Virus record (IMG/VR): IMGVR_UViG_2563366910_000001
Source of the DNA: a virus
Lineage: Duplodnaviria; Heunggongvirae; Uroviricota; Caudoviricetes
DNA: 40,977 bases
Reading direction: 5' to 3' (one strand)
The position numbers and the translations under genes are program-made. The stretch's first letter is position 1. Each line of letters opens with the position of its first letter. Shown here piece after piece: positions 1 through 40,977 of this stretch. The notes beneath the pieces are model-generated. The model was not told where the DNA came from. It did not search any database and saw only the letters and a program-made list of their open reading frames with translations.

Positions 1-1143
1 CTATGCTGTTTTGATATCTACGATAATCCAGTCTTTACCACGATCATCATTGTATCGGTCGGTCATTTTTCTGGATTTATGACCTAACAACTTTTGCGTA
101 TCCAGACCCTGTTCCCGATATAACCGTTCTGACAGAGATCGCTGCTCATGAAATGTGGGCGCAGTTCCTGGCTCCCATTTTATGCCACATTTTTCCCTGG
201 CCTTTTTAAAAGCCGTTGTAAGAGTATTTGCAGACACCTGGTCTCCTCTGTTTGCTTGAGAGGTAGTGTGACGGTAATGGACCAGATATTTACTAACAAC
301 AGCATCCCTGCACTGAGATATAACTTCACGAAGGGTAATATTCAGAGCATCGCATTTCAGGTTAAGCGGAATAGCAAGTTTTGAACCGGTTTTTTCCTGA
401 GTAATGTGCAACATGTCGTCCCAGATATCAGAGAATTTCAAATTGCAGATATCGCCTAAACGTTGTCCAGTGACAAGAGCAAGTAGCATCCCGCATTTTA
501 AATAGGGCTGCCGTCTGCTTACGCTGTCAAATATTGCCTGCCATTCGGGCAGTGATAATCTTTGGCGGTTTACTCGATTTCGCGGTTGTTTTGTTGCCTG
601 CGCTGGGTTAAATCCTGGCGGAACATGTCCTGCGTGTTGTGCTTCTTTGAAGACGTCGATCAACACCATTCTCACGACTTGCGCCATCCTGTTATGACCT
701 TCAGCCTTTACAGCATCAATTATTTCGGCAATATCAAGTGCGGTAATATCCTTGAGGTGTTGCATTCCACAATGCTCACGGAAAAGACGAATGGGTTTGC
801 CTTTTTGCCGATAGGAGTTGGGTCTTAGTTCATTATGTTGCAGCCTGTCCTCCTGGATAGAAATATATTTATCAAGCCATTCTGTCACCGTAATGTCTGA
901 GCGCCTGCCTTTCATTCTTTCTAGACGCTCATTGACGCTTAATATTTGTCGGGTACGTTGTTCAGCAATAATGGTATTTGCTTCAGTAGCAACTTGTTTT
1001 GCTTCATTCTCATCAGTTCCTAAGCTATGAAAACGACCGGATAGTGGATGTTTGTATTGCCAATATACCTTTCCGGTTCGCTTATCTAATTTGCAATATA
1101 AATTGGGTATAGAGATTTTGTGAGATCGGGGTCTAGCAGCCAT
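1..1143 (-). CDS. int: Tyrosine recombinase, phage integrase (lambda Int family)
   Basis: 380-aa ORF ending at the window edge. C-terminal catalytic region resembles lambda Int (TFHEQRSLSERLY...LLGHKS...MTDRYNDDRG with the terminal Tyr), as recalled. First gene of the prophage, with xis overlapping upstream. Confidence 0.92.
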   Translation of the reverse strand: MAARPRSHKISIPNLYCKLDKRTGKVYWQYKHPLSGRFHSLGTDENEAKQVATEANTIIAEQRTRQILSVNERLERMKGRRSDITVTEWLDKYISIQEDRLQHNELRPNSYRQKGKPIRLFREHCGMQHLKDITALDIAEIIDAVKAEGHNRMAQVVRMVLIDVFKEAQHAGHVPPGFNPAQATKQPRNRVNRQRLSLPEWQAIFDSVSRRQPYLKCGMLLALVTGQRLGDICNLKFSDIWDDMLHITQEKTGSKLAIPLNLKCDALNITLREVISQCRDAVVSKYLVHYRHTTSQANRGDQVSANTLTTAFKKAREKCGIKWEPGTAPTFHEQRSLSERLYREQGLDTQKLLGHKSRKMTDRYNDDRGKDWIIVDIKTA

Positions 1144-1369
1144 CAGCGATTATCCGTTGGAGTTTTGGGTTTGCGTTTATTGGGAGTTGCGGTTCTGCAA
1201 GCGTTCCTACAAAACGGGAATTTCGGTCAATCATCCAGTAGCGACCAACTTTTATAGCGGGTGGGGCCATCATTTTCCCTTGCGCGTATTTTTTCAGAAC
1301 TCGCTCACTTGGTGCTAAGTCCCCAAATTCTTCTTTAGCCCAGTCCTGTAAAGTGATTAGTCGAGACAT
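1133..1369 (-). CDS. xis: Excisionase (Xis-like)
   Basis: 78-aa ORF overlapping the int start by 11 nt. Small basic protein in the canonical position upstream of int; N-terminal LITLQDWA motif resembles lambda Xis LTLQEWNA as recalled. Confidence 0.75.
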   Translation of the reverse strand: MSRLITLQDWAKEEFGDLAPSERVLKKYAQGKMMAPPAIKVGRYWMIDRNSRFVGTLAEPQLPINANPKLQRIIADGC

Positions 1370-1508
1370 TTGTCCTCCTCTTAGCTGCTGAGGGAGTTTG
1401 TGACCGATATATCTGACATGATATTAAGCTCATGGCAGGTACATCTCTTGACTGGTCATAGAGATAAATTTAATGCTGAGAAATGCAGTATTGAATTTAT
1501 CAATTTTT

Positions 1509-1748
1509 CTATTTCCTGCGTATGGCACGTAACTTCTTAATGTGTTCTGCTGTTTCGATCTCTTCAGCTATCCGATCTGCGTCAGCTTTATTCACAGGTT
1601 CAAAGTCATGATTAAAGCGGAACATGCTGGCGATACATGTTCTGCCTTTTCGGATGTAGTGAACTTTGTTGTGAGTGGAACGCAGGATTTTGCAGGGAGT
1701 GCCGTGGTGGTCGACGTACCAGGTGTTAGGGTAAATCACTCTGAACAT
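1509..1748 (-). CDS. Hypothetical early-left protein (79 aa)
   Basis: ORF in the leftward operon orientation between xis and the accessory genes; no motif recognised. Confidence 0.45.
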   Translation of the reverse strand: MFRVIYPNTWYVDHHGTPCKILRSTHNKVHYIRKGRTCIASMFRFNHDFEPVNKADADRIAEEIETAEHIKKLRAIRRK

Positions 1749-1773
1749 TCTTGACCTTGTGTTGTGCGGATTG

Positions 1774-2058
1774 TTATTCAGTGCCGATATTTACCTTTAT
1801 CGCGTATACCTTTACCGGTTTATCACCGAAGTGCGGATGTGTGATTGTCTTCACTTCATATCCGTCATACGGAACATCAACTCTGCGGCTGGAATCGTCG
1901 CGCTTCGGATATCCCTTTGTGATAATCAGGCGGTCATGCTTACGGTTAACGAGGCGCTTTTTCCAGTAGTCATTACACAGGCGATACTCTTCCGTTTTCT
2001 CTCCGCGAATCATGGCATCGAAGTATTCACCTTTAACGGCAAGTTGCAGGTTAGCCAC
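1774..2058 (-). CDS. ASCH-like small protein (GxKxxExR motif)
   Basis: Proposed GTG start at 2056-2058, preceded on the minus strand by AAGGAG with a 6-nt spacer. Protein contains EYFDAMIRGEKTEEYR, matching the ASCH-type GxKxxExR signature. An in-frame ATG at 2011-2013 would cut into this motif. Confidence 0.5.
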   Translation of the reverse strand: MANLQLAVKGEYFDAMIRGEKTEEYRLCNDYWKKRLVNRKHDRLIITKGYPKRDDSSRRVDVPYDGYEVKTITHPHFGDKPVKVYAIKVNIGTE

Positions 2059-2791
2059 GGTTAACTCCTTGCTGTGTGGCGTCGAGTAATAAATCCCACA
2101 ACCGCTGAGAGCAATTTCCGCATGTACAGCGTTGACCCACAACGTTTATCGCGTTGCTGATTTCCGGCGTTACCTGTTTAGGAACCATAACCCAACCATC
2201 CGGAGTTACCGGAAGCGAGAACGGCAGCACATCTCTGTGAACAAGTTTTTGCTGTGACAGGTTATCCAGAACTTTCTGTACTGCTGCATCACCGAATACA
2301 CCAAGCGCATCTGCCATAACTCCTACAACCTGATAAGCCTCAGCGCATACCGTGGATAAACCATCCGGAATTACCGGAGAGTTGCCGGGTTCTTTAATGT
2401 GCAAGCGAGGCTCACCATCTTTTGGCTCAGGCCACTGGCGCTCCATGTTGATCTTCAATTTATCTTCCATAGCAACGGTAATTTCAGCATCGCTGATGCC
2501 AGCACGGCGCTGTGCATCCCACAACAGAAACTGCATATCAGCCCACTCGCTAAGATCGTCTGGTTCGGCTGCGGCTTCCAGTGCCTCTTTTGAGAGGTGT
2601 TTCAGTGGACCAATGGGGCCAACGCAGCCAAATGTGGAGTCAGACCATTTGGCATGCTCGTGGCGAATCTGTTCGCGTTCCAGTGATGCCAGTGCAATTC
2701 GTGCTAGTTCCATTTGTTCGCCACGAGTAAGCCCGTTTTCAAGCGGATTTTTAATGAACAATTCAATACGTTCTTTGGTAATAGTGGTCAT
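2051..2791 (-). CDS. Hypothetical early-left protein (246 aa) with PVIPDG-type motifs
   Basis: Long ORF in operon orientation; stop overlaps the start of the downstream ASCH-like gene. Contains NSPVIPDGL and PVTPDGW motifs shared with neighbouring genes. Confidence 0.55.
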   Translation of the reverse strand: MTTITKERIELFIKNPLENGLTRGEQMELARIALASLEREQIRHEHAKWSDSTFGCVGPIGPLKHLSKEALEAAAEPDDLSEWADMQFLLWDAQRRAGISDAEITVAMEDKLKINMERQWPEPKDGEPRLHIKEPGNSPVIPDGLSTVCAEAYQVVGVMADALGVFGDAAVQKVLDNLSQQKLVHRDVLPFSLPVTPDGWVMVPKQVTPEISNAINVVGQRCTCGNCSQRLWDLLLDATQQGVNRG

Positions 2792-2997
2792 GTGTTAATC
2801 CTCAAAACTTTATGCCCGGGCGCAAAAGTACGTGTTTTGTCTTTGCTTATTCGCCACCCGTCTTTACGGGCCTCTTTTGCACAACCAGACCATGACGTAC
2901 CGATATACTCACCGAAGTCTGGCACTGGATATACACCTTCCGTACACTGGCGACAATCACAATAGAGATGCATGGTGTAACTTGCGGCAATAGCCAT
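2788..2997 (-). CDS. Cys-rich small protein (69 aa)
   Basis: ATG at 2995-2997 lies 1 nt after the upstream TGA (2999-3001). Contains a CDCRQC cluster; possible zinc-binding. 3' end overlaps the next gene by 4 nt. Confidence 0.45.
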   Translation of the reverse strand: MAIAASYTMHLYCDCRQCTEGVYPVPDFGEYIGTSWSGCAKEARKDGWRISKDKTRTFAPGHKVLRINT

Positions 2998-2998
2998 A

Positions 2999-3607
2999 TC
3001 ACTCTCTTTTTCCCTGAAGCATGGCAGCGTGGCAGGCATCCTCTACGCCCTTAACTGCATCTGCGCAGTAGTTATAGCGATTGCATTCCACTAACTTCTG
3101 CCTGAGATTTTCAATTGCTTGCGCGACATCAGCCTGTATTACAGGAACTGGCGGAACGGCTGTCTGCTGCTCTCGAACGTCATTAGTCGCTATCGGTTCT
3201 GCTGCCAACTGACTGGCATATTTGTTAATGGTAACGATAAGCTCTTGCTCAGCCTCATCCAGACAATCACCGATACCTCGCCTGTCGCCGTCAAAATCAT
3301 CGAAATCAGCACGAACTCTGGCAAATTTCAGGATTGCGGACAACACCTCACCAGGAATTACCGGAGAGTTGGTTGACGTTTCCGAAATTTCCCGAAAATT
3401 ATTGGTTGACGAATTCGCGTTTTCCCGAAAGTTTCCGGCATGAAGCATAGCCGCGCGGCAGGCGTTCCAGCCTCTCACCTCTGCAATAGCGGCAACAGCA
3501 TCGACCGCGTACATGCTAAGAGGGTTAGGCATTGGTTTTTCTTCAGGTACTACTGGCACTGGCTTGGCATATATAGCGGCTGAACATACCAACCCTTTGA
3601 TAACCAA
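2999..3607 (-). CDS. Hypothetical early-left protein (up to 202 aa)
   Basis: ORF in operon orientation with PVPVVPEE and NSPVIPGEV motifs. Start uncertain: in-frame Met codons at 3607, 3532 and 3514, and the upstream gene stops at 3550. Confidence 0.5.
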   Translation of the reverse strand: MVIKGLVCSAAIYAKPVPVVPEEKPMPNPLSMYAVDAVAAIAEVRGWNACRAAMLHAGNFRENANSSTNNFREISETSTNSPVIPGEVLSAILKFARVRADFDDFDGDRRGIGDCLDEAEQELIVTINKYASQLAAEPIATNDVREQQTAVPPVPVIQADVAQAIENLRQKLVECNRYNYCADAVKGVEDACHAAMLQGKRE

Positions 3608-3804
3608 CTGTCAGCAATGTTTTTACTCCTCGTTATTGCCGGAATACCTAAGCCATTGTCTGAATGCAGCCATGCCACCGGATTCTCTTCCAGCGATGCC
3701 AGAGCAATTTCATAAGCCCGGCGCTCAACATTGTCTCGCACATCCAAACTGCTGATACGCTCTTTGATTTCTTTAATCAGTTCTTTGTCGGTAAAAGTGC
3801 TCAT
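3550..3804 (-). CDS. Hypothetical small protein (84 aa)
   Basis: ATG at 3802-3804 lies 1 nt after the upstream stop (3806-3808), the same TGAtATG junction as at 2995-3001. Confidence 0.4.
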   Translation of the reverse strand: MSTFTDKELIKEIKERISSLDVRDNVERRAYEIALASLEENPVAWLHSDNGLGIPAITRSKNIADSWLSKGWYVQPLYMPSQCQ

Positions 3805-3805
3805 A

Positions 3806-4173
3806 TCAATCTCCATTGGTATCAATGTTTACAGCCTGACAAGACTCTTTGAGCACCCAGTCAATAGCGTCTTTCCATGCCTCTGTTTCGACTGGTGGAT
3901 TTTCACGCTTAACCTGTTCATAGAAGCGCACTGCTTTAACCAGTCCTTCCGGTACTACTGGTGATGGCTGTTTAGCTTCTAAATCAGCAATTCTGTCAAC
4001 CACGGCATCGACAGCATCTGAAAAGCCGAACCAGTTGCTCCACTCCGGCTCATCCCCGGTTGCTGCAAAGTACATATCTGCTAAAGCAGATTCAGCATGG
4101 TCACGCTCGTTAATGAGTTGCTCTTCGCTTTTCTCCAGTTCAGCAATACGCTTACCCCCATCCGAGATAACAC
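3806..4173 (-). pseudogene. 5'-truncated early-left gene interrupted by IS911
   Basis: The ORF 3806..4222 continues 49 nt into the IS911 left inverted repeat, so its first ~16 codons are IS-derived. The native portion (coiled-coil-like, with a PSPVVPEGL motif) begins at the IS boundary. Confidence 0.5.
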
Positions 4174-4245
4174 TGAAGTGGTTTACTGAATTTGGCCACC
4201 TGAACAGAGGTGATATGCTCACCTCAGAACAACACAGGTGCCATA

Positions 4246-5393
<1,148 letters not shown>

Positions 5394-14370: not shown

Positions 14371-15453
14371 TTAGAACTGATAAACCAGACCTACAGCGAC
14401 GATGTCGTCGGTATCAATACCAGCTGTTTTGGTAAACTTACTATCGTCAATTAAGTTGATTTTGTAATCAACAAAAGTGGACATGTTTTTATTAAAGTAG
14501 TAAGTAGCACCGACATCGACATACTTGACTAAGTCTCGGTCACCATGAACACCAAGGTCTTTACCTTTTGACTGAAGGTAAGCAACAGATGGACGCAGAC
14601 CGAAGTCAAACTGATATTGTGCTACTGCTTCAAAGTTTTGTGCTTTGTTTGCAATATGGTTATTACCAAAAACGGTCATATTCTGAGTTTCAGAATATGT
14701 GGTAGCCAGATAGATATTGTTCGCATCATATTTCAGGCCTGCAGCCCATACTTCCGCATTTTTGCCGGAGGCATTGAATTTGCTCTTACCATAGGCGACC
14801 TGACCGTCAGTGCGATCTGATTTAGCATAGGTTGCACCCACGCCGAATCCTTCATACTCATAAGTAGTGGAGAAACCGAAACCATCACCATTGGCTTCAG
14901 TTACGTCAGTGCGGTCATTTTTACCCTGATACTGAGCAGCAAAGTTCAGGCCATCGACCAGACCAAAGAAGTCGTTGTTACGATAAGTTGCAACACCAGT
15001 AGTGCGACCAGTCATGAACACATCTGTTTGGGTCCAGGTATCACCACCGAATTCTGGCAGAACGTCAGTCCACGCACCGATGTCGTATGCTACACCGTAG
15101 TTACGGCCGTAATCGATTGAGCCGTAATCACCAAATTTCAGGCCTGCAAATGCAAGACGGGTTTTGTCTTTGGAAGAACCTTGAGATTCAGCACGGTTGC
15201 CTTTGAATTCATATTCCCACTGACCGAAACCAGTCAGTTGATCGTTGATTTGGGTTTCACCTTTGAAGCCAAGACGGGCATAAGTAGTATCACCATCATC
15301 TGCATCATTAGAGGAGAAGTAGTGCTTGGCATTAACTTTCCCGTATAGATCCAGCTTGTTACTGTCTTTATTATAAATTTCAGCTGCCTGAGCAGACATC
15401 GCCATCAGTACTGATGCAGCTACAGCAGAAATTGCCACTGTTAATTTTTTCAT
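14371..15453 (-). CDS. nmpC: Outer-membrane porin, OmpC/NmpC/Lc family (phage-encoded)
   Basis: 360-aa protein with signal peptide ([23 protein letters not shown]), AEIYNKD start of the mature protein, and the C-terminal ...VGLVYQF beta-barrel signature of general porins. Antisense to the late transcript, between Q and the lysis genes as in DLP12/PA-2. Confidence 0.9.
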
Positions 15454-15880
15454 TGTACGCCCTTTTTTTGAACTTTTATTAAAAAATGATGTCACTGCGC
15501 GATAAATATTCATCTAATCAATGTGATTATTTCAAGATGTAAGTTTTAGTTTCTCATTTAATTTGTGAAGTAGATCTCTATTTTTATCTGAACCTTTTCT
15601 ATCTAATCCTATTCATGGCTCTTGTCTGAACAAAAATAAATCTATTAGCTAATTTATATTAATGGCACTTATTTATAAGTGCTCTATAATTCTTTAGCTT
15701 AATTTAAACAAACTAAAAATAACATCGGAAATTATTAACTGGTTATTTGTTGAAGCTTTCTTATGCATTTGTGGTGGTGTTTTGAACACTCGGTGGCATT
15801 CTCACAAATATCATTTAGTAGTTTACGTACGTAAAAAATTGGTTATGCTGTTAAGAGTGGTTACTTCGTCACACAGCTTA

Positions 15881-16257: not shown

Positions 16258-16754
16258 TGCCTCCATCATTACGAAAAGCCGTTGCTGCTGCTATTGGTGG
16301 CGGAGCAATTGCTATAGCATCAGTGTTAATCACTGGCCCAAGTGGTAACGATGGTCTGGAAGGTGTCAGCTACATACCATACAAAGATATTGTTGGTGTA
16401 TGGACTGTATGTCACGGGCATACAGGAAAAGACATCATGCTCGGTAAAACGTATACCAAAGCAGAATGCAAAGCCCTCCTGAATAAAGACCTTGCCACGG
16501 TCGCCAGACAAATTAACCCGTACATCAAAGTCGATATACCGGAAACAATGCGCGGCGCTCTTTACTCATTCGTTTACAACGTGGGTGCTGGCAATTTCAG
16601 AACATCGACGCTTCTTCGCAAAATAAACCAGGGCGATATCAAAGGCGCATGTGATCAGCTACGTCGCTGGACATATGCTGGCGGTAAGCAATGGAAAGGT
16701 CTCATGACTCGTCGTGAGATTGAGCGTGAAATCTGTTTGTGGGGTCAGCAATGA
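16257..16754 (+). CDS. Endolysin (GH24 lysozyme with N-terminal SAR signal-anchor-release domain)
   Basis: 165-aa ORF with a Gly/Ala-rich N-terminal hydrophobic segment ([18 protein letters not shown]) followed by a T4-lysozyme-like catalytic region. Start overlaps the holin stop. Confidence 0.9.
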
Positions 16755-17212
16755 ACAGAGTAACCGCGATTATCTCCGCTCTGGTTATCTGCATCATCGT
16801 CTGCCTGTCATGGGCTGTTAATCATTACCGTGATAACGCCATTACCTACAAAGCCCAGCGCGACAAAAATGCCAGAGAACTGACGCTGGCGAACGCGGCA
16901 ATTACTGACATACAGATGCGTCAGCGTGATGTTGCTGCGCTCGATGCAAAATACACGAAGGAGTTAGCTGATGCGAAAGCTGAAAATGATGCTCTGCGTG
17001 ATGATGTTGCCGCTGGTCGTCGTCGGTTGCACATCAAAGCAGTCTGTCAGTCAGTGCGTGAAGCCACCACCGCCTCCGGCGTGGATAATGCAGCCTCCCC
17101 CCGACTGGCAGACACCGCTGAACGGGATTATTTCACCCTCAGAGAGAGGCTGATCACTATGCAAAAACAACTGGAAGGAACCCAGAAGTATATTAATGAG
17201 CAGTGCAGATAG
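16751..17212 (+). CDS. Rz: Rz i-spanin
   Basis: 153-aa type II membrane protein with an N-terminal TM and coiled-coil periplasmic domain. ATGA overlap with the endolysin stop. Confidence 0.85.
16971..17153 (+). CDS. Rz1: Rz1 o-spanin (lipoprotein embedded in the +1 frame of Rz)
   Basis: 60-aa ORF fully inside Rz with a lipobox (LVVVGC) and proline-rich mature region ([15 protein letters not shown]). Confidence 0.75.
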
Positions 17213-17243
17213 AGCTGCCCATATCGATGGGCAACTCATGCAA

Positions 17244-17537
17244 TTATTGTGAGCAATACACACGCGCTTCCAGCGGAGTATAAATGCCTAAAGTAATAAA
17301 ACCGAGCAATCCATTTACGAATGTTTGCTGGGTTTCTGTTTTAACAACATTTTCTGCACCACCACAAATTTTTGCTGCATCGACAGTTTTCTTCTGCCCA
17401 ATTCCCGAAACGAAGAAATGATGGGTGATGGTTTCCTTTGGTGTTACTGCTGTAGGTTTGTTTCCAACAGTAAACGTCTGTTGAGCACATCCTGTAATAA
17501 GCATTGCCAGAGCGGCAGAAAACAACATTTTTTTCAT
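17244..17537 (-). CDS. bor: Bor lipoprotein (serum-resistance factor)
   Basis: 97-aa protein MKKMLFSAALAMLITGCAQQTFTV... with a lipobox; matches recalled lambda Bor. Opposite strand, just downstream of Rz. Confidence 0.85.
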   Translation of the reverse strand: MKKMLFSAALAMLITGCAQQTFTVGNKPTAVTPKETITHHFFVSGIGQKKTVDAAKICGGAENVVKTETQQTFVNGLLGFITLGIYTPLEARVYCSQ

Positions 17538-18017
17538 CTTATTATCCTGCATTGTTAAAAACGGCAGAATCCTATGTGACAACAATTAAACGATAGTTAA
17601 ATGGATTGATGAAAATTAAAACTACACAGGTGGGCTCAGACTATTGGAGGAAGTTGGGGACACTCAGAATCCTGTGGAATGAAATAAACCGGTCTATCCG
17701 TCCATTACCCTTTTAGCTGCGCTGTATCGTCGCCGTATTCCCGCATTAACCATGACCGTAGCCCGACGGGGAATTCCTTCTGCGTGAGTGTGCGGGAATA
17801 ATTAAAAACGATGCACACCGGGTTTTTACCGCGTTAATGATTCGCGGGTTTATCCCGGTGCGATGGTGGAAGAAACAGGAAGCTGTATTACAGAAAGTGC
17901 TACTACTGTATCCCGATGCGATGTATGTAATGTGAGTCAGATAATGGCACAGGATGTGGTGATGTGGCAGTCTGGAACACAGGATATATTGTCAGAATAA
18001 GACCCGTAGGAATAAAA

Positions 18018-18344
18018 ATGAAAAGACGCCTTTTACTACTTTTTCTGTTATCTGTCCTGGCAGTGGGATGCTCGCAGCAAAAAGCTGATGAGCCCCGGCA
18101 ATTAGTGACGGTGTATCCACGATATCCGGAATATGCTGCAGCAAATTATATCAAGGGGCTGGTTGAGGTTAAGTTCGATATTGGTGCTGATGGGACTGTG
18201 ACACGGATCGTTTTTCTCCGCTCAGAGCCTCATAATTTGTTTCGTGATGAAGTGGTGAAGGCCATGGCGAAATGGCGATTTGAAAAGAATCGCCCCTGTC
18301 AGGGAGTGAAGAGACAATTTATCTTTACGCCGTCACGTCCTTGA
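18018..18344 (+). CDS. Lipoprotein with TonB C-terminal-like domain
   Basis: Signal peptide plus lipobox (LLSVLAVGCSQQ), then YPRYPEYAAANYIKGLVEVKFDIGADGTVTRIVFLRSEP...KWRFE, which resembles the TonB C-terminal fold signature (YP..A...EG.V.V.F.I...G.V). Confidence 0.5.
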   Translation: MKRRLLLLFLLSVLAVGCSQQKADEPRQLVTVYPRYPEYAAANYIKGLVEVKFDIGADGTVTRIVFLRSEPHNLFRDEVVKAMAKWRFEKNRPCQGVKRQFIFTPSRP

Positions 18345-18466
18345 TGCTTCCAGGTAGAGAGGGGCTGGAAGCAGGAGAAAAATGAAAGAGCCAGCGGTTA
18401 TATTTTTGTCATGGCTGACGAGGAATGATGGAAGAAGGCGTTGTATGCCACACAACGCCTCACTGT

Positions 18467-18820
18467 TCATTTCTTCTTTTTCTCTGGTGGAACCCGATGA
18501 ATAAGAGTTGCACTGGTTTCCGATGAGATGGCGATATACTCGGGCAAAGTATGCTGGCAGTTTTCCAACTGGTCAAAAATACCTGCTCTCGTCTGTTGCA
18601 ATGCCTGCAGCATGCGGCGGCAATGCGCCTTGCTTTTACTAACCATCTTTCCTTCCTCTATCAGTCGCTGCGTGAACTCATCATGGAATACCAGGTAAAT
18701 GCGGATGTTATCGGTTTTGGCTACGCAGCATAGTACAAAACGGACAGGTGCATCCCGGGACGGGGGAGGCGTCACATGTCCCTGTGATGGTTGTTCCGGG
18801 TAATGTACTGTGTGGGGCAT
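18467..18820 (-). CDS. Hypothetical protein (possible 3' part of a frameshifted gene)
   Basis: 117-aa ORF overlapping the 3' end of ORF 18708..18959 in another frame; may be a frameshift-disrupted gene or two overlapping genes. Confidence 0.3.
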   Translation of the reverse strand: MPHTVHYPEQPSQGHVTPPPSRDAPVRFVLCCVAKTDNIRIYLVFHDEFTQRLIEEGKMVSKSKAHCRRMLQALQQTRAGIFDQLENCQHTLPEYIAISSETSATLIHRVPPEKKKK

Positions 18821-18959
18821 AAAAATGTCCGATAATTTTACTTTCTACCGCAGTTAGTTGATTCGTTGGTCCTGGTAGCACATTGGGCGAGGATTTAAAT
18901 GCCAGGCAACTGAAGGATGATGTCGCAAGGGAGATAGCGAGAATATTTCTGATTTTCAT
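18708..18959 (-). CDS. Putative secreted protein (signal peptide), possibly 5' part of a frameshifted gene
   Basis: In-frame start MKIRNILAISLATSSFSCLA gives a typical signal peptide; ORF overlaps 18467..18820. Confidence 0.35.
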   Translation of the reverse strand: MKIRNILAISLATSSFSCLAFKSSPNVLPGPTNQLTAVESKIIGHFYAPHSTLPGTTITGTCDASPVPGCTCPFCTMLRSQNR

Positions 18960-19107
18960 TTGATGATGCCTCTGTGTGAAATGACGGTAAACGACGCACT
19001 TGTGCCGGCACATAATAGCAAGCACCATAATAGATCAGATTCGATTCTTGCTGTAAGTGATAATTATTCTCGTTTTCGGGTCCTTTCCGTCGATCCAACA
19101 GGTTACG

Positions 19108-19119
19108 GGGCGGCGACCT
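19108..19119 (+). other. cosN cohesive-end site (GGGCGGCGACCT), inside the cos region
   Basis: The exact 12-nt lambda cohesive-end sequence is present, flanked by lambda-like cosQ/cosB context (CAGGTTACG upstream; CGCGG-TTTT-C-CTATTTATGAAAATTTT downstream) about 190 nt upstream of Nu1. Confidence 0.8.
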
Positions 19120-19295
19120 CGCGGTTTTTCACTATTTATGAAAATTTTTCAGGGAAAATCGTGTCGGTACTTCTCGAATATAACTTTTTGTTTTTTTTAA
19201 TATTGCATCCGTAAAGGTCCGACATGAAAGTGTCCGAAAATGCCTTTTTCTGGCGTTTTCATGTCGGGCCTTGTATTTGATAATGGGTTGTTTTC

Positions 19296-19844
19296 ATGAA
19301 GGTTAATAAAAAGAGGCTTGCCGAAATTTTCAACGTGGACCCGCGGACGATTGAACGCTGGCAGTCTCAGGGACTCCCTTGCGCCTCCAAAGGTAGTAAG
19401 GGCATTGAATCTGTATTTGATACTGCCATGGCAATTCAGTGGTATGCGCAGAGGGAAACTGATATCGAAAACGAAAAGCTCCGCAAAGAACTGGACGATT
19501 TGCGTGCGGCAGCGGAGTCAGATTTACAACCCGGCACCATTGACTATGAACGCTACCGGCTCACAAAAGCGCAGGCAGATGCGCAGGAACTGAAAAATGC
19601 CCGTGAAGACGGAGTAGTGCTGGAAACTGAACTGTTTACCTTCATTCTGCAACGTGTGGCACAGGAGATTTCGGGGATACTTGTGCGTGTGCCGTTGACA
19701 TTACAGCGTAAATATCCGGACATTTCACCATCACACCTTGATGTGGTGAAAACTGAAATCGCGAAAGCCTCCAATGTTGCAGCTAAGGCCGGTGAAAACG
19801 TGGGCGGGTGGATCGATGATTTCAGACGCGCAGAAGGCAGCTAA
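19296..19844 (+). CDS. nu1: Terminase small subunit Nu1
   Basis: 182-aa protein ([28 protein letters not shown]...) closely similar to recalled lambda Nu1. Confidence 0.92.
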
Positions 19845-40683: not shown

Positions 40684-40977
40684 ATGGATATAAGCCCCTT
40701 ACTTCATGCGCTTTGTGCTGTGGCTGCGCAGATACTGGTTGGTCTTTTTACCGGAAACTGGGCTTACGGAGCGATAGCCGGTTGTACGTTCTTCATTGCG
40801 CGTGAACATACCCAGGCAGAATATCGCTGGATTGAAATGTTCGGGCATGGCAAGCGAATGAATATGCCGTGGTGGGGCGGTTTTGATCCGCGAGCTTGGG
40901 ATGTGGCAAGCCTGATGGATTTTGCTGTGCCGGTGGTGGCGTGTCTGCTGGTCTGGCTGTTGGTTAATCGTGGGTGA
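40684..40977 (+). CDS. Hypothetical small membrane protein (97 aa)
   Basis: Complete ORF (stop at 40975-40977) with GGAGG 4 nt upstream of the ATG and two predicted hydrophobic helices (LCAVAAQILVGLF; FAVPVVACLLVWLLV). Confidence 0.4.
   Translation: MDISPLLHALCAVAAQILVGLFTGNWAYGAIAGCTFFIAREHTQAEYRWIEMFGHGKRMNMPWWGGFDPRAWDVASLMDFAVPVVACLLVWLLVNRG

What the first reader, a model, noticed from the sequence alone, without database searches (positions are those of the whole stretch)
18018..18344. Secreted lipoprotein with TonB C-terminal-like domain near cos
Next to bor sits a lipoprotein whose mature part resembles the TonB C-terminal domain that docks onto TonB-box receptors. A phage-encoded lipoprotein of this kind could interfere with TonB-dependent receptors such as FhuA or BtuB, and so with infection by TonB-dependent phages or colicins. 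The idea is analogous to the Cor exclusion lipoproteins of other lambdoid phages, though this protein is not Cor-like in sequence. The call rests on a motif pattern only.
Basis: inference. Interest (0 to 1): 0.5.

Follow-up and report, generated by a model that had tools for sequence, protein, structure and literature searches.

The report
Prophage lipoprotein copy of TonB's tip
A phage-21-type prophage carries a small outer-membrane lipoprotein that closely copies the receptor-docking end of the bacterial TonB protein but lacks its energy-coupling parts; it is already annotated and known to be expressed in lysogens, its function is untested, and the best guess is that it interferes with TonB-dependent uptake used by some phages and colicins.

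Summary
Window 18018..18344 (+) encodes a 108-aa protein with a lipoprotein signal peptide (lipobox AVG|C18, Ser at +2). Its mature part is a complete TonB C-terminal domain: Pfam TonB_C E 7e-13, an ungapped ~38% identical match to E. coli TonB 151-230, and an AF2 model about 1 Å rmsd from receptor-bound TonB.

The gene is not new. It is identical to phage 21 CPT_21_73 ("TonB C-terminal domain protein"). It occurs in 1225 of 5426 complete E. coli genomes as "TonB family protein". In the LF82 prophage Perceval it was reported as a moron transcribed in lysogens.

New findings here:
- It is under strong purifying selection (dN/dS 0.10-0.14).
- It belongs to a family of ~110-aa lipoproteins. A second subfamily sits at the same lysis-to-terminase junction in other lambdoid prophages. 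Distant members are chromosomal in Klebsiella, Raoultella, Serratia and Erwinia loci.
- It is not a spanin (the PHROG label) and not Cor/Llp-like.

No functional test was found. The best explanation is an outer-membrane-tethered, energy-uncoupled TonB mimic acting as a dominant-negative decoy, which is inferred, not shown (about 0.4).

The parts
18018..18344 (+). CDS for a 108-aa prolipoprotein with a TonB C-terminal domain. It is identical to phage 21 CPT_21_73 and RefSeq WP_000830178.1, 'TonB family protein'.
   Evidence: ORF list and sequence. 100% identity to phage 21, ev017 and PhiR57_1. RefSeq annotation. dN/dS 0.10-0.14 against subfamily B.
18018..18071 (+). Lipoprotein signal peptide, M1-C18: n-region MKRR, hydrophobic core, lipobox A-V-G-C. 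C18 would be the lipidated first residue of the mature protein. [quoted passage not shown]
   Evidence: Sequence. Cys invariant in 29 of 29 family members, lipobox regex met in 28 of 29, and +2 is S/A/T/V. The sorting rule comes from established knowledge. Lipidation itself was not tested.
18072..18092 (+). Short tether, S19-E25 (SQQKADE), between the lipid anchor and the folded domain.
   Evidence: Lower pLDDT before about residue 26 in the AF2 model. Variable in length and sequence across the family.
18093..18329 (+). TonB C-terminal domain, about P26-T104, equivalent to E. coli TonB 153-231. It keeps Y36-P37 (= Y163-P164), F53 (F180), G59 (G186), F75 (F202), W86 (W213), F88 (Y215), F103 (F230) and strand beta3 (V97-F103 = I224-F230).
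   Evidence: Pfam and TIGRFAM hits. Ungapped phmmer alignment to 1u07, 2gsk and 2grx. AF2 pLDDT 96-98 over residues 31-100. Foldseek rmsd about 1 Å. Residue mapping by alignment.
18008..18011 (+). Shine-Dalgarno sequence AGGA, 6 nt upstream of the ATG.
   Evidence: Sequence. The phage 21 record marks an RBS at the same place.
17988..18003 (+). Conserved block ATTGTCAGAATAAGAC, a candidate extended -10 promoter (TG at 17990-17991, CAGAAT at 17993-17998). It would give the gene its own transcript in lysogens.
   Evidence: The block is kept in subfamilies A and B although flanking non-coding sequence and synonymous sites have diverged. Autonomous transcription in the Perceval lysogen (PMC9928086). 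The consensus promoter scan did not call it, so the assignment is inferred, not shown.
18346..18372 (+). Perfect 8-bp inverted repeat (GCTTCCAG, 11 nt, CTGGAAGC) starting 2 nt after the stop codon, with no T-run. It could be a transcript-end or stabilising hairpin. Function unknown.
   Evidence: Read directly from the sequence. Not called as an intrinsic terminator.

Best explanation
The gene is a lysogenic-conversion gene (moron) of phage-21-type and related lambdoid prophages.

Proposed localisation. The product is exported, lipidated at Cys18 and sorted to the periplasmic face of the outer membrane. A tether of about 8 residues holds a complete TonB C-terminal domain there.

Proposed activity. 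The protein has TonB's receptor-docking module but lacks the N-terminal membrane anchor that couples to ExbB/ExbD and lacks the proline-rich spacer. It therefore cannot transmit energy. The most likely activity is that of a natural dominant-negative TonB. It would engage partners of the TonB C-terminal domain unproductively. Those partners are the TonB boxes of outer-membrane transporters or of incoming group-B colicins, or TonB/ExbD themselves. The effect would be to damp or selectively block TonB-dependent entry of phages (T1, phi80, H8 type), colicins or microcins into the lysogen.

What is shown: gene, lipobox, fold, purifying selection, transcription in lysogens.
What is inferred: lipidation and outer-membrane location, any binding partner, any phenotype.
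For: 1. The domain is a full, close copy of TonB residues 151-230: ungapped, about 38-40% identity. The model superposes at 0.9-1.0 Å on TonB as seen bound to BtuB (2gsk_B) and FhuA (2grx_C).
2. The YP motif, all core aromatics and strand beta3 are kept. By my recollection of the 2006 complex structures, beta3 pairs with the TonB box.
3. The energy-coupling parts are absent. The protein is 108 aa, with a signal peptide where TonB has its transmembrane helix. NCBIfam TonB equivalog scores are 45-69 bits against cutoffs of 265-448.
4. The lipobox is invariant and +2 is never Asp in 29 relatives.
5. Periplasmically exported TonB fragments 33-239, 103-239 and 122-239 inhibit TonB-system activity (bioRxiv 10.1101/2020.01.05.895219).
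6. T5 Llp and the Cor proteins are precedents for small inner-leaflet outer-membrane lipoproteins that silence FhuA from the periplasm (bioRxiv 10.64898/2026.03.26.714494).
7. The 99.7% identical gene in prophage Perceval of E. coli LF82 is transcribed 8-fold above prophage background in LB. Its log2(fpkm+5) is 5.0-6.6 in all five conditions, while the flanking Rz, endolysin and terminase genes are at 2.3-4.4. That is comparable with host tonB at 4.2-7.2 (PMC9928086).
8. dN/dS is 0.10-0.14 with dS above 1.3 between the two prophage subfamilies. The gene is intact in 1221 of 1225 carrier genomes.
9. Both subfamilies occupy the same slot, after the lysis genes and before the terminase genes, in prophages with different packaging modules. 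This is typical of a mobile accessory gene.
Against: - No experiment on this protein or its relatives was found.
- The positions equivalent to TonB Q160, R158 and R166 are Y33, T31 and Y39 here and vary in the family. I recall these residues as TonB-box or cork contacts.
- mRNA abundance is only about that of tonB. TonB-dependent transporters outnumber TonB (established knowledge), so a simple receptor-titration model needs a stable, accumulating protein or a low-copy target such as TonB/ExbD.
- Many carriers are ExPEC or commensal strains such as Nissle 1917. By general knowledge these depend on TonB-dependent siderophore uptake, so a strong general block would be costly.
- Distant family members are chromosomal genes outside prophages. 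The ancestral role may therefore be physiological rather than defensive.
- PADLOC has no matching defence model.
- The steric feasibility of an outer-membrane-tethered domain reaching a TonB box was not modelled.
Confidence: 0.4

Rival explanations
1. An envelope or virulence-type conversion factor unrelated to TonB transport. The TonB-C fold would serve as a generic periplasmic binding module that attaches the outer membrane to another partner, such as peptidoglycan, OmpA/Lpp or a periplasmic protein. The benefit would be to envelope robustness or host-associated survival, like the neighbouring Bor/Iss.
For: - The gene sits beside bor/iss and in the same prophage as the NmpC-like porin. In near-identical phages sitABCD is also present. 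All of these are surface or uptake morons expressed in lysogens (PMC9928086).
- TonB_C domains occur in thousands of non-TonB architectures, including multi-repeat proteins.
- Chromosomal homologues lie in non-phage, non-iron contexts.
- The Q160-region residues are not conserved.
- Interactions of the TonB C-terminal domain with peptidoglycan, Lpp and OmpA have been reported (recalled from the literature, not checked here).
Against: - Similarity to TonB itself is high, about 38-40% and ungapped, and beta3 and the aromatic core are retained.
- Unlike bor, the gene is not induced in DMEM or macrophages.
- No partner can be named from the data.
Confidence: 0.25
2. A selective trap rather than a general inhibitor. 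The diverged Q160-region would tune the domain to the TonB boxes of invading proteins, meaning group-B colicins, pesticin-like toxins or phage proteins. Siderophore receptors would be left largely untouched.
For: - It uses the same structural evidence as the best explanation.
- It would reconcile low expression and carriage by siderophore-dependent ExPEC strains with a protective role.
- The variable N-terminal strand region differs between subfamilies A (TVYPRYP) and B (KALPQYP) while the core is fixed.
Against: - Purely inferential, and no binding data exist.
- TonB-box recognition is mostly backbone beta-augmentation (recalled from the literature), which argues against fine selectivity.
Confidence: 0.12
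3. A helper of uptake rather than a blocker. Together with the prophage's porin and the TonB-independent SitABCD Fe/Mn importer, it would re-route metal acquisition, or it would hold TonB-dependent transporters in a particular state.
For: - All 6 distinct subfamily-A phages in the phage collection also carry sitABCD.
- Phage 21 and PhiR57_1 have sitABCD just beyond the tail-fibre genes.
- The NmpC-type porin, SitABCD and this gene are all morons in Perceval.
Against: - The association is one-sided. At least 15 sit-carrying phages lack the gene, and the 7 subfamily-B records (Stx1a phages and others) lack sitA.
- No Fur box lies upstream: the best match is 11 of 19, no better than shuffles.
- Expression does not follow fepA or tonB.
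- A domain without an energy source cannot drive transport.
Confidence: 0.08
4. A lysis accessory or o-spanin-like protein, as the PHROG 1267 label 'Rz-like spanin' implies.
For: - PHROG 1267 matches over the full length at E 5e-43 and is labelled as a spanin.
- The gene lies just after the lysis cassette on the late-gene strand, and the product is an outer-membrane lipoprotein.
Against: - A complete Rz/Rz1 pair already exists at 16739..17212 and 16971..17153, with a proline-rich Rz1 lipoprotein.
- The mature domain is a globular TonB-C fold, not a spanin.
- The gene is transcribed in lysogens when holin, endolysin and Rz are at background.
- bor, on the opposite strand, separates it from Rz.
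- The label is most simply an annotation transfer error.
Confidence: 0.03
5. A non-functional leftover, a 'TonB fragment' or 'partial tonB-like' gene captured from the host and merely hitch-hiking.
For: Database names such as 'TonB fragment' and 'Partial tonB-like membrane protein'. Very high identity among carriers could reflect recent spread rather than selection.
Against: - dN/dS is 0.10-0.14 at saturated synonymous divergence.
- A functional-looking lipoprotein signal peptide replaces the TonB N-terminus and is conserved family-wide.
- The domain is complete, not truncated.
- Its closest relatives are full-length ~110-aa lipoproteins, not tonB genes.
- It is transcribed.
Confidence: 0.05

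Closest known systems
E. coli TonB C-terminal domain (residues ~150-239; PDB 1u07, 1xx3, 2gsk, 2grx)
   Same: Same fold, rmsd about 1 Å. About 38-40% identity, ungapped over 80 residues. The YP motif, G186, the core aromatic positions (Y215 is Phe here) and strand beta3 are conserved.
   Different: - No N-terminal transmembrane anchor, no proline-rich spacer and no link to ExbBD.
- Anchored to the outer membrane by a predicted lipid instead of to the inner membrane.
- Ends 4 residues earlier than TonB.
- The Q160, R158 and R166 equivalents differ.
- Falls far below the NCBIfam TonB equivalog cutoffs.
Engineered periplasmic TonB fragments (signal-peptide fusions of TonB 33-239, 103-239, 122-239)
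   Same: A TonB C-terminal domain delivered to the periplasm without energy coupling. These constructs inhibit TonB-system activity (bioRxiv 10.1101/2020.01.05.895219).
   Different: - The fragments are soluble, over-expressed laboratory constructs that include the spacer.
- This gene is a natural product with a lipid anchor, a minimal domain and modest expression.
- Inhibition by it has not been tested.
T5 Llp and lambdoid Cor superinfection-exclusion lipoproteins
   Same: Small phage-encoded lipoproteins of the inner leaflet of the outer membrane. They act on a TonB-dependent transporter (FhuA) from the periplasmic side (bioRxiv 10.64898/2026.03.26.714494).
   Different: - Different fold and no sequence relation. 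The BFVD search gave no hit at E <= 1e-3, whereas the preprint reports many small phage proteins in BFVD for the Llp fold, and all strong PDB hits are TonB domains.
- Llp works allosterically on the FhuA plug. The mode proposed here is TonB-box or TonB mimicry.
- The carrying phage's J tip resembles lambda J (54% identity) rather than being identifiable as a FhuA binder.
Uncharacterised ~105-130-aa 'TonB family protein' lipoproteins of Enterobacterales (loci in Klebsiella, Raoultella, Serratia and Erwinia; source names also give Salmonella, Pantoea and Rahnella)
   Same: Same architecture, lipobox plus one TonB_C domain. 31-49% identity and shared signature residues (S-x-P-x-H-L-F-D, K-W-R-F-E, Y-A-x-x-N). 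They rank above true TonBs in profile searches.
   Different: They are chromosomal, in non-prophage neighbourhoods, for example between ycgN-like and dsbB genes in Serratia. No function is known for them either.
Bor/Iss and other lambdoid morons (Lom, NmpC porin, SitABCD)
   Same: Accessory envelope genes of the same prophage, expressed during lysogeny (PMC9928086). Bor is also an outer-membrane lipoprotein next door.
   Different: Unrelated sequences and folds. Bor is strongly induced in DMEM and macrophages, whereas this gene is roughly constitutive.

Membership tests
TonB_C domain (Pfam PF03544 / TIGR01352) | Profile HMM score above the curated threshold | tested here: met
   PF03544: 49.2 bits against 24.6, E 7.3e-13. 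TIGR01352: 47.4 bits against 27.1.
TonB_C domain (Pfam PF03544 / TIGR01352) | Three-dimensional fold of solved TonB C-terminal domains | tested here: met
   AF2 pLDDT 86.9. Foldseek against 1u07, 2gsk_B and 2grx_C: rmsd 0.9-1.2 Å, target TM 0.88-0.92, probability 1.00.
TonB_C domain (Pfam PF03544 / TIGR01352) | Conserved YP motif and aromatic core (TonB Y163, P164, F180, F202, W213, Y215, F230) | tested here: met
   Y36, P37, F53, F75, W86, F88 and F103 align to these positions. Most are invariant or nearly so in 29 relatives.
Bona fide TonB energy transducer (NCBIfam PRK10819 equivalogs) | N-terminal inner-membrane anchor that couples to ExbB/ExbD | tested here: not met
   The N-terminus is a cleavable lipoprotein signal peptide. 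Only the C-terminal ~80 residues of the TonB models are matched, at 45-69 bits against cutoffs of 265-448.
Bona fide TonB energy transducer (NCBIfam PRK10819 equivalogs) | Proline-rich periplasm-spanning spacer | tested here: not met
   Only about 8 residues (SQQKADE) separate Cys18 from the domain, and the whole protein is 108 aa.
Bacterial outer-membrane lipoprotein | Lipobox with an invariant Cys after a signal peptide, and no Asp at +2 | tested here: met
   AVG|C18-S19. The PROSITE-type rule is met in 28 of 29 family members, the Cys is invariant, and +2 is S/A/T/V.
Bacterial outer-membrane lipoprotein | Actual lipidation and outer-membrane localisation | not testable with these tools
   Needs globomycin or palmitate labelling and membrane fractionation.
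Cor/Llp superinfection-exclusion lipoproteins | Cor/Llp fold or sequence family | tested here: not met
   No BFVD hit at E <= 1e-3. All strong PDB hits are TonB domains. The only Pfam hit is TonB_C.
Cor/Llp superinfection-exclusion lipoproteins | Blocks infection by FhuA-dependent phages when expressed | not testable with these tools
   Requires plating assays. No report was found.
Rz1 / o-spanin (label of PHROG 1267) | Short proline-rich outer-membrane lipoprotein encoded within or next to the i-spanin gene and needed for lysis | tested here: not met
   The true Rz1 is at 16971..17153 inside Rz, 16739..17212. This protein has a globular TonB-C fold, is separated from Rz by bor, and is transcribed when the lysis genes are silent. 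PHROG 1267 does match (E 5e-43), but its label does not fit.
Prophage moron (autonomously expressed accessory gene) | Transcribed in the lysogen above the prophage background | tested here: met
   Published RNA-seq for the 99.7% identical Perceval gene LF82_160: 8-fold above background in LB and expressed in all 5 conditions (PMC9928086). Not measured for this window's own host.
Prophage moron (autonomously expressed accessory gene) | Own promoter and terminator | tested here: inconclusive
   The consensus scan finds no + strand promoter in 17586-18017. A conserved TGTyAGAAT extended -10 candidate lies at 17990-17998. A hairpin without a T-run follows the stop codon.
Known anti-phage defence systems (PADLOC) | Match to a defence-system protein model | tested here: not met
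   No PADLOC family at E <= 0.1.

The most novel reading that the evidence does not exclude
The lipoprotein is a natural molecular mimic of TonB that the prophage, and some Enterobacterales chromosomes, deploy at the inner face of the outer membrane. There it would capture the TonB boxes of incoming group-B colicins, microcin-loaded or phage-engaged receptors. This would be a fold-level decoy defence distinct from Cor/Llp, carried by about a quarter of sequenced E. coli. It could also shift susceptibility to TonB-dependent 'Trojan horse' antibiotics such as cefiderocol and albomycin.
Probability: 0.3. Interest if true: 0.75.

Novelty: new variant of a known kind. Interest (0 to 1): 0.52.

Why it matters
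If the decoy idea is right, a very common prophage gene (1225 of 5426 complete E. coli genomes, including Nissle 1917, the type strain ATCC 11775 and AIEC LF82) would modulate the single energy gateway used by siderophores, vitamin B12, group-B colicins, several microcins, phages T1/phi80/H8 and siderophore-conjugated antibiotics.

- It would add a mechanistically new class of lysogenic conversion or superinfection exclusion: mimicry of a host energy transducer.
- It would explain why a classic phage (21) carries a 'TonB fragment'.
- It would give a handle on an uncharacterised chromosomal lipoprotein family in Enterobacterales.
- The hypothesis can be tested directly with standard plating, colicin and uptake assays.

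If it is wrong, the gene is still a conserved, expressed envelope moron of unknown role. The 'spanin', 'fragment' and 'partial' labels in databases should be corrected either way.

Tried and rejected
- Single-sequence AF2 gave an unusable model (pLDDT 50.8). It was redone with a 29-sequence alignment.
- The search for related loci with the 13-sequence alignment failed for lack of a conserved stretch. It worked with 6 sequences.
- tblastn of all window ORFs against the Klebsiella, Raoultella, Serratia and Erwinia loci found no shared phage genes, so those homologues are not in related prophages.
- Pfam, PHROG and PADLOC on neighbouring small ORFs (17863..18000, 18382..18504, 18467..18820, 18551..18733, 18708..19028, 18895..19098) gave nothing informative.
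- The promoter and terminator consensus scan found no + strand promoter upstream and no terminator downstream.
- The Fur-box scan was negative.
- Rfam found no family in 17200-19400 at E <= 1 other than chance-level hits, and nothing in the whole window at gathering thresholds. No tRNAs were found.
- Ten literature searches found no functional study of this protein. The only direct mention was the Perceval moron table.
- Spanin reading: rejected (see rivals).
- Decayed tonB fragment reading: rejected on dN/dS and family evidence.
- A 'TonB-bypass package' with SitABCD was considered and downgraded, because the co-occurrence is one-sided.
Full report
**1. The observation**

Window 18018..18344 (+) is an ATG-initiated ORF of 108 codons plus TGA. 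An AGGA ribosome-binding site lies 6 nt upstream.

The longer GTG-initiated version from 17964, used in some records, is not supported. All relatives start at the M-K/x-R/K n-region.

The N-terminus MKRRLLLLFLLSVLAVG|C18-S fits the lipobox rule. In a 29-member family alignment the Cys is invariant, 28 of 29 members pass a PROSITE-type lipobox regex, and the +2 residue is S, A, T or V and never Asp. By the established Lol-sorting rule this predicts the inner leaflet of the outer membrane. That location is inferred, not tested.

**2. The TonB resemblance is real homology, not a motif**

- Pfam TonB_C scores 49.2 bits (cutoff 24.6, E 7e-13), and TIGR01352 gives E 2e-12.
- phmmer against all PDB sequences puts E. 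coli TonB C-terminal-domain chains first (1u07, 1xx3, 2gsk_B, 2grx_C; E about 1e-14). The alignment is ungapped, with residues 24-103 matching TonB 151-230.
- A single-sequence AF2 model was poor. With 29 family sequences the model has mean pLDDT 86.9 and 96-98 across the domain.
- Foldseek against the PDB returns TonB domains only at the top. Hits include TonB as bound to BtuB and FhuA, with rmsd 0.9-1.2 Å and target TM 0.88-0.92.

Mapping by TonB number = residue number + 127 shows which positions are kept:

- Kept: Y163-P164 (Y36-P37), F180 (F53), G186 (G59), F202 (F75), W213 (W86), Y215 (F88), F230 (F103) and strand beta3 (V97-F103).
- Not kept: the equivalents of Q160, R158 and R166 are Y33, T31 and Y39.

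What is missing matters as much. There is no transmembrane anchor and no proline-rich spacer. The NCBIfam TonB equivalog models are matched only over their last ~80 positions, far below cutoff. So this is a TonB C-terminal domain, not a TonB.

**3. What the element is and where it lives**

The window is a phage-21-type lambdoid prophage. The 2.1-kb region around the gene is 100% identical to phages PhiR57_1 and PhiR63_2 over its full length. It is also 100% identical to classic phage 21 over the 91% that lies before the end (cos) of that linear record. There the gene is CPT_21_73, 'TonB C-terminal domain protein'.

The gene order is S, R, Rz/Rz1, then bor/iss on the minus strand, then about 480 bp non-coding, this gene, about 950 bp, and Nu1.

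The gene is found at >=95% identity in 1225 of 5426 complete E. coli genomes. It covers >=80% of the query in 1221 of them and is annotated 'TonB family protein'. Carriers include Nissle 1917 and the type strain. Other database names are 'TonB fragment', 'Partial tonB-like membrane protein encoded within prophage CP-933N' and, in PHROG 1267, 'Rz-like spanin'.

The spanin label is wrong for this protein, for three reasons:

- A complete Rz/Rz1 pair exists at 16739..17212 and 16971..17153.
- The fold is globular TonB-C.
- The gene is transcribed when the lysis genes are silent.

**4. Relatives**

A second subfamily, about 70% identical and also 108 aa with a lipobox, sits in prophages with a different packaging module (HNH, Terminase_2, TerL). 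These include Stx1a-converting phages. It again lies between Rz1 and the terminase genes on the late-gene strand, and bor is absent.

Between the two subfamilies dS is 1.3-2.2 and dN/dS is 0.10-0.14, in the signal peptide as well as the mature part. This is a selected protein-coding gene, not a decaying fragment.

An exhaustive profile search shows that the next-closest proteins are not TonBs but other ~105-130-aa lipoproteins with one TonB_C domain, at 31-49% identity. Located members, in Klebsiella, Raoultella, Serratia and Erwinia loci and a contig named Salmonella by its source, lie in ordinary chromosomal neighbourhoods with no shared phage genes. Pantoea and Rahnella members are known only from source names. 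The prophage gene therefore most likely derives from this uncharacterised host lipoprotein family rather than from a truncation of tonB.

BFVD holds no viral protein with this fold at E <= 1e-3. The fold is therefore rare among catalogued phage proteins, and the protein is not of the Cor/Llp type.

**5. Expression**

Published RNA-seq of E. coli LF82, whose prophage Perceval carries a 99.7% identical copy, lists 'LF82_160 TonB fragment' among the morons, 8-fold above prophage background in LB (PMC9928086).

The supplementary tables give log2(fpkm+5) values for five conditions: two DMEM time points, LB, and macrophages at 1 h and 6 h.

| Gene | log2(fpkm+5) range |
|---|---|
| LF82_160 (this gene's copy) | 5.0-6.6 |
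| Flanking Rz, endolysin and terminase genes | 2.3-4.4 |
| Host tonB | 4.2-7.2 |
| Host fepA | 3.2-7.0 |

The gene does not follow the iron-regulated pattern of tonB and fepA. Consistently, there is no Fur box upstream.

A 16-nt block, ATTGTyAGAATAAGAC (window 17988-18003), is conserved between subfamilies although its surroundings have diverged. It reads as an extended -10 promoter (TG-n-CAGAAT/TAGAAT). That reading is an inference, because the consensus scan did not call a promoter.

**6. Mechanism**

Shown: an exported, lipobox-bearing, complete TonB C-terminal domain that lacks the energy-coupling parts, is conserved by selection, and is transcribed during lysogeny.

Inferred: it sits on the periplasmic face of the outer membrane and engages partners of the TonB C-terminal domain unproductively.

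Two precedents support this inference:

- Periplasmically exported TonB fragments inhibit TonB-system activity (bioRxiv 10.1101/2020.01.05.895219).
- Llp and Cor show that small inner-leaflet lipoproteins can shut down FhuA from the periplasm (bioRxiv 10.64898/2026.03.26.714494).

I put about 0.4 on the dominant-negative or decoy reading in its broad form, where the target is receptor TonB boxes, colicin TonB boxes, or TonB/ExbD.

Points against this reading:

- No experiment exists on this protein.
- The Q160-region residues differ.
- The mRNA is only tonB-like in abundance, whereas receptors outnumber TonB.
- Carriers include strains that rely on siderophores.
- The chromosomal relatives suggest a physiological ancestral role.

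Rivals are a TonB-unrelated envelope or virulence role (0.25), a selective trap for invading TonB-box proteins (0.12), an uptake-helper role linked to SitABCD (0.08), a dead fragment (0.05) and a spanin (0.03).

**7. The SitABCD lead**

Phage 21 and PhiR57_1 carry the TonB-independent Fe/Mn importer sitABCD immediately after the ORF that ends this window. All six distinct subfamily-A phages in the collection have sitA.

However, at least 15 sit-carrying phages lack the TonB-domain gene, and the subfamily-B phages lack sit. The link may simply be shared ancestry of one phage lineage.

**8. Comparison and novelty**

The gene and its domain annotation are already in GenBank and RefSeq, and its moron status is published.

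New here:

- The demonstration that it is a complete, selected, lipid-anchored TonB-domain mimic.
- Membership in a wider lipoprotein family.
- Correction of the 'fragment' and 'spanin' labels.
- An explicit, testable decoy mechanism.

If that mechanism holds, it would be a new variant of outer-membrane-lipoprotein exclusion (Cor/Llp) and a natural counterpart of laboratory dominant-negative TonB fragments.

**9. Verdict**

- Observation: confirmed.
- Interpretation: partly supported. The fold and localisation signals hold, and the function is untested.
- Novelty: new variant of a known kind.
- Interest: about 0.5.

Noticed in passing
window 17715-17886 (+), between bor and the TonB-domain gene: A discrete ~170-190-nt non-coding element with sharp ends and variable flanks.
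- Its presence does not depend on its neighbours. In 80 IMG/VR loci, 11 have the TonB-domain gene downstream, always +294 to +322 nt from the pattern, and 57 do not. Bor lies upstream in only 21.
- The first ~110 nt are also in lambda and HK629, where a minus-strand promoter is annotated.
- RNAalifold gives 35 pairs that are 98.6% kept, with 2 compensatory pairs in the 3' hairpin. Majority U·G pairs favour a + strand RNA. The middle hairpin is replaced wholesale between variants.
- No Rfam family matches.
It could be a structured RNA of the late region, a moron-insertion landmark or a recombination linker. It remains undetermined.
   Followed up: partly
PHROG 1267 (matched by window 18018..18341): The PHROG family that contains this protein is labelled 'Rz-like spanin' in the lysis category (E 5e-43, full length). 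The protein is a TonB_C lipoprotein and the real Rz/Rz1 lie upstream, so the label looks like an annotation error that will propagate to phage genomes.
   Followed up: yes
window 14371..15513 (-): A 380-aa Gram-negative porin gene (Pfam Porin_1, E 2e-151; annotated OmpD/NmpC in related phages) lies upstream of the lysis cassette (lysozyme gene from 16257). Phage 21 has tRNA-Asn and tRNA-Thr between its antiterminator and holin genes, and this window has no tRNA. The Perceval copy is a moron, 10-fold above background in LF82.
   Followed up: partly
just beyond window end (after 40684..40977); L027 3799-7248 in PhiR57_1; phage 21 21967-25416: Near-identical phages carry the sitABCD Fe/Mn ABC importer immediately after the last ORF of this window. 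All six subfamily-A TonB-domain phages have it, but many sit-carrying phages lack the TonB-domain gene.
   Followed up: partly
window 17244..17537 (-): The bor homologue here is the allele that RefSeq names 'increased serum survival lipoprotein Iss' in Nissle 1917 and ATCC 11775. In LF82 it is strongly induced in DMEM and macrophages (log2 about 8-11 against about 4 in LB), unlike its TonB-domain neighbour.
   Followed up: partly
L016 ~3345-3361, and L020, L036, L051, L055, L086 (subfamily-B leader): In subfamily B the candidate -10 region forms a perfect 8-bp palindrome, AGAATAAG-A-CTTATTCT, directly upstream of the gene. It is a possible operator. Subfamily A, including this window, lacks the second half because of a 13-nt deletion.
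   Followed up: no
window 18345-19295: About 950 bp between the gene and nu1 is annotated inconsistently between records: + strand 40-aa and 60-aa ORFs in phage 21, minus strand 117-aa and 67-aa ORFs in PhiR57_1. Only PHROGs of unknown function match (3744 and 4843, on opposite strands of the same DNA). ORF 18708..19028 (-) has a signal-peptide-like N-terminus but no family hit. The coding status of this stretch is unresolved.
   Followed up: partly
window 1..4500 compared with PhiR57_1: The window and PhiR57_1 share the integrase end coordinates, but the lysis region is offset by 3218 bp. The window's early region is therefore about 3.2 kb shorter than in that otherwise near-identical phage.
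   Followed up: no
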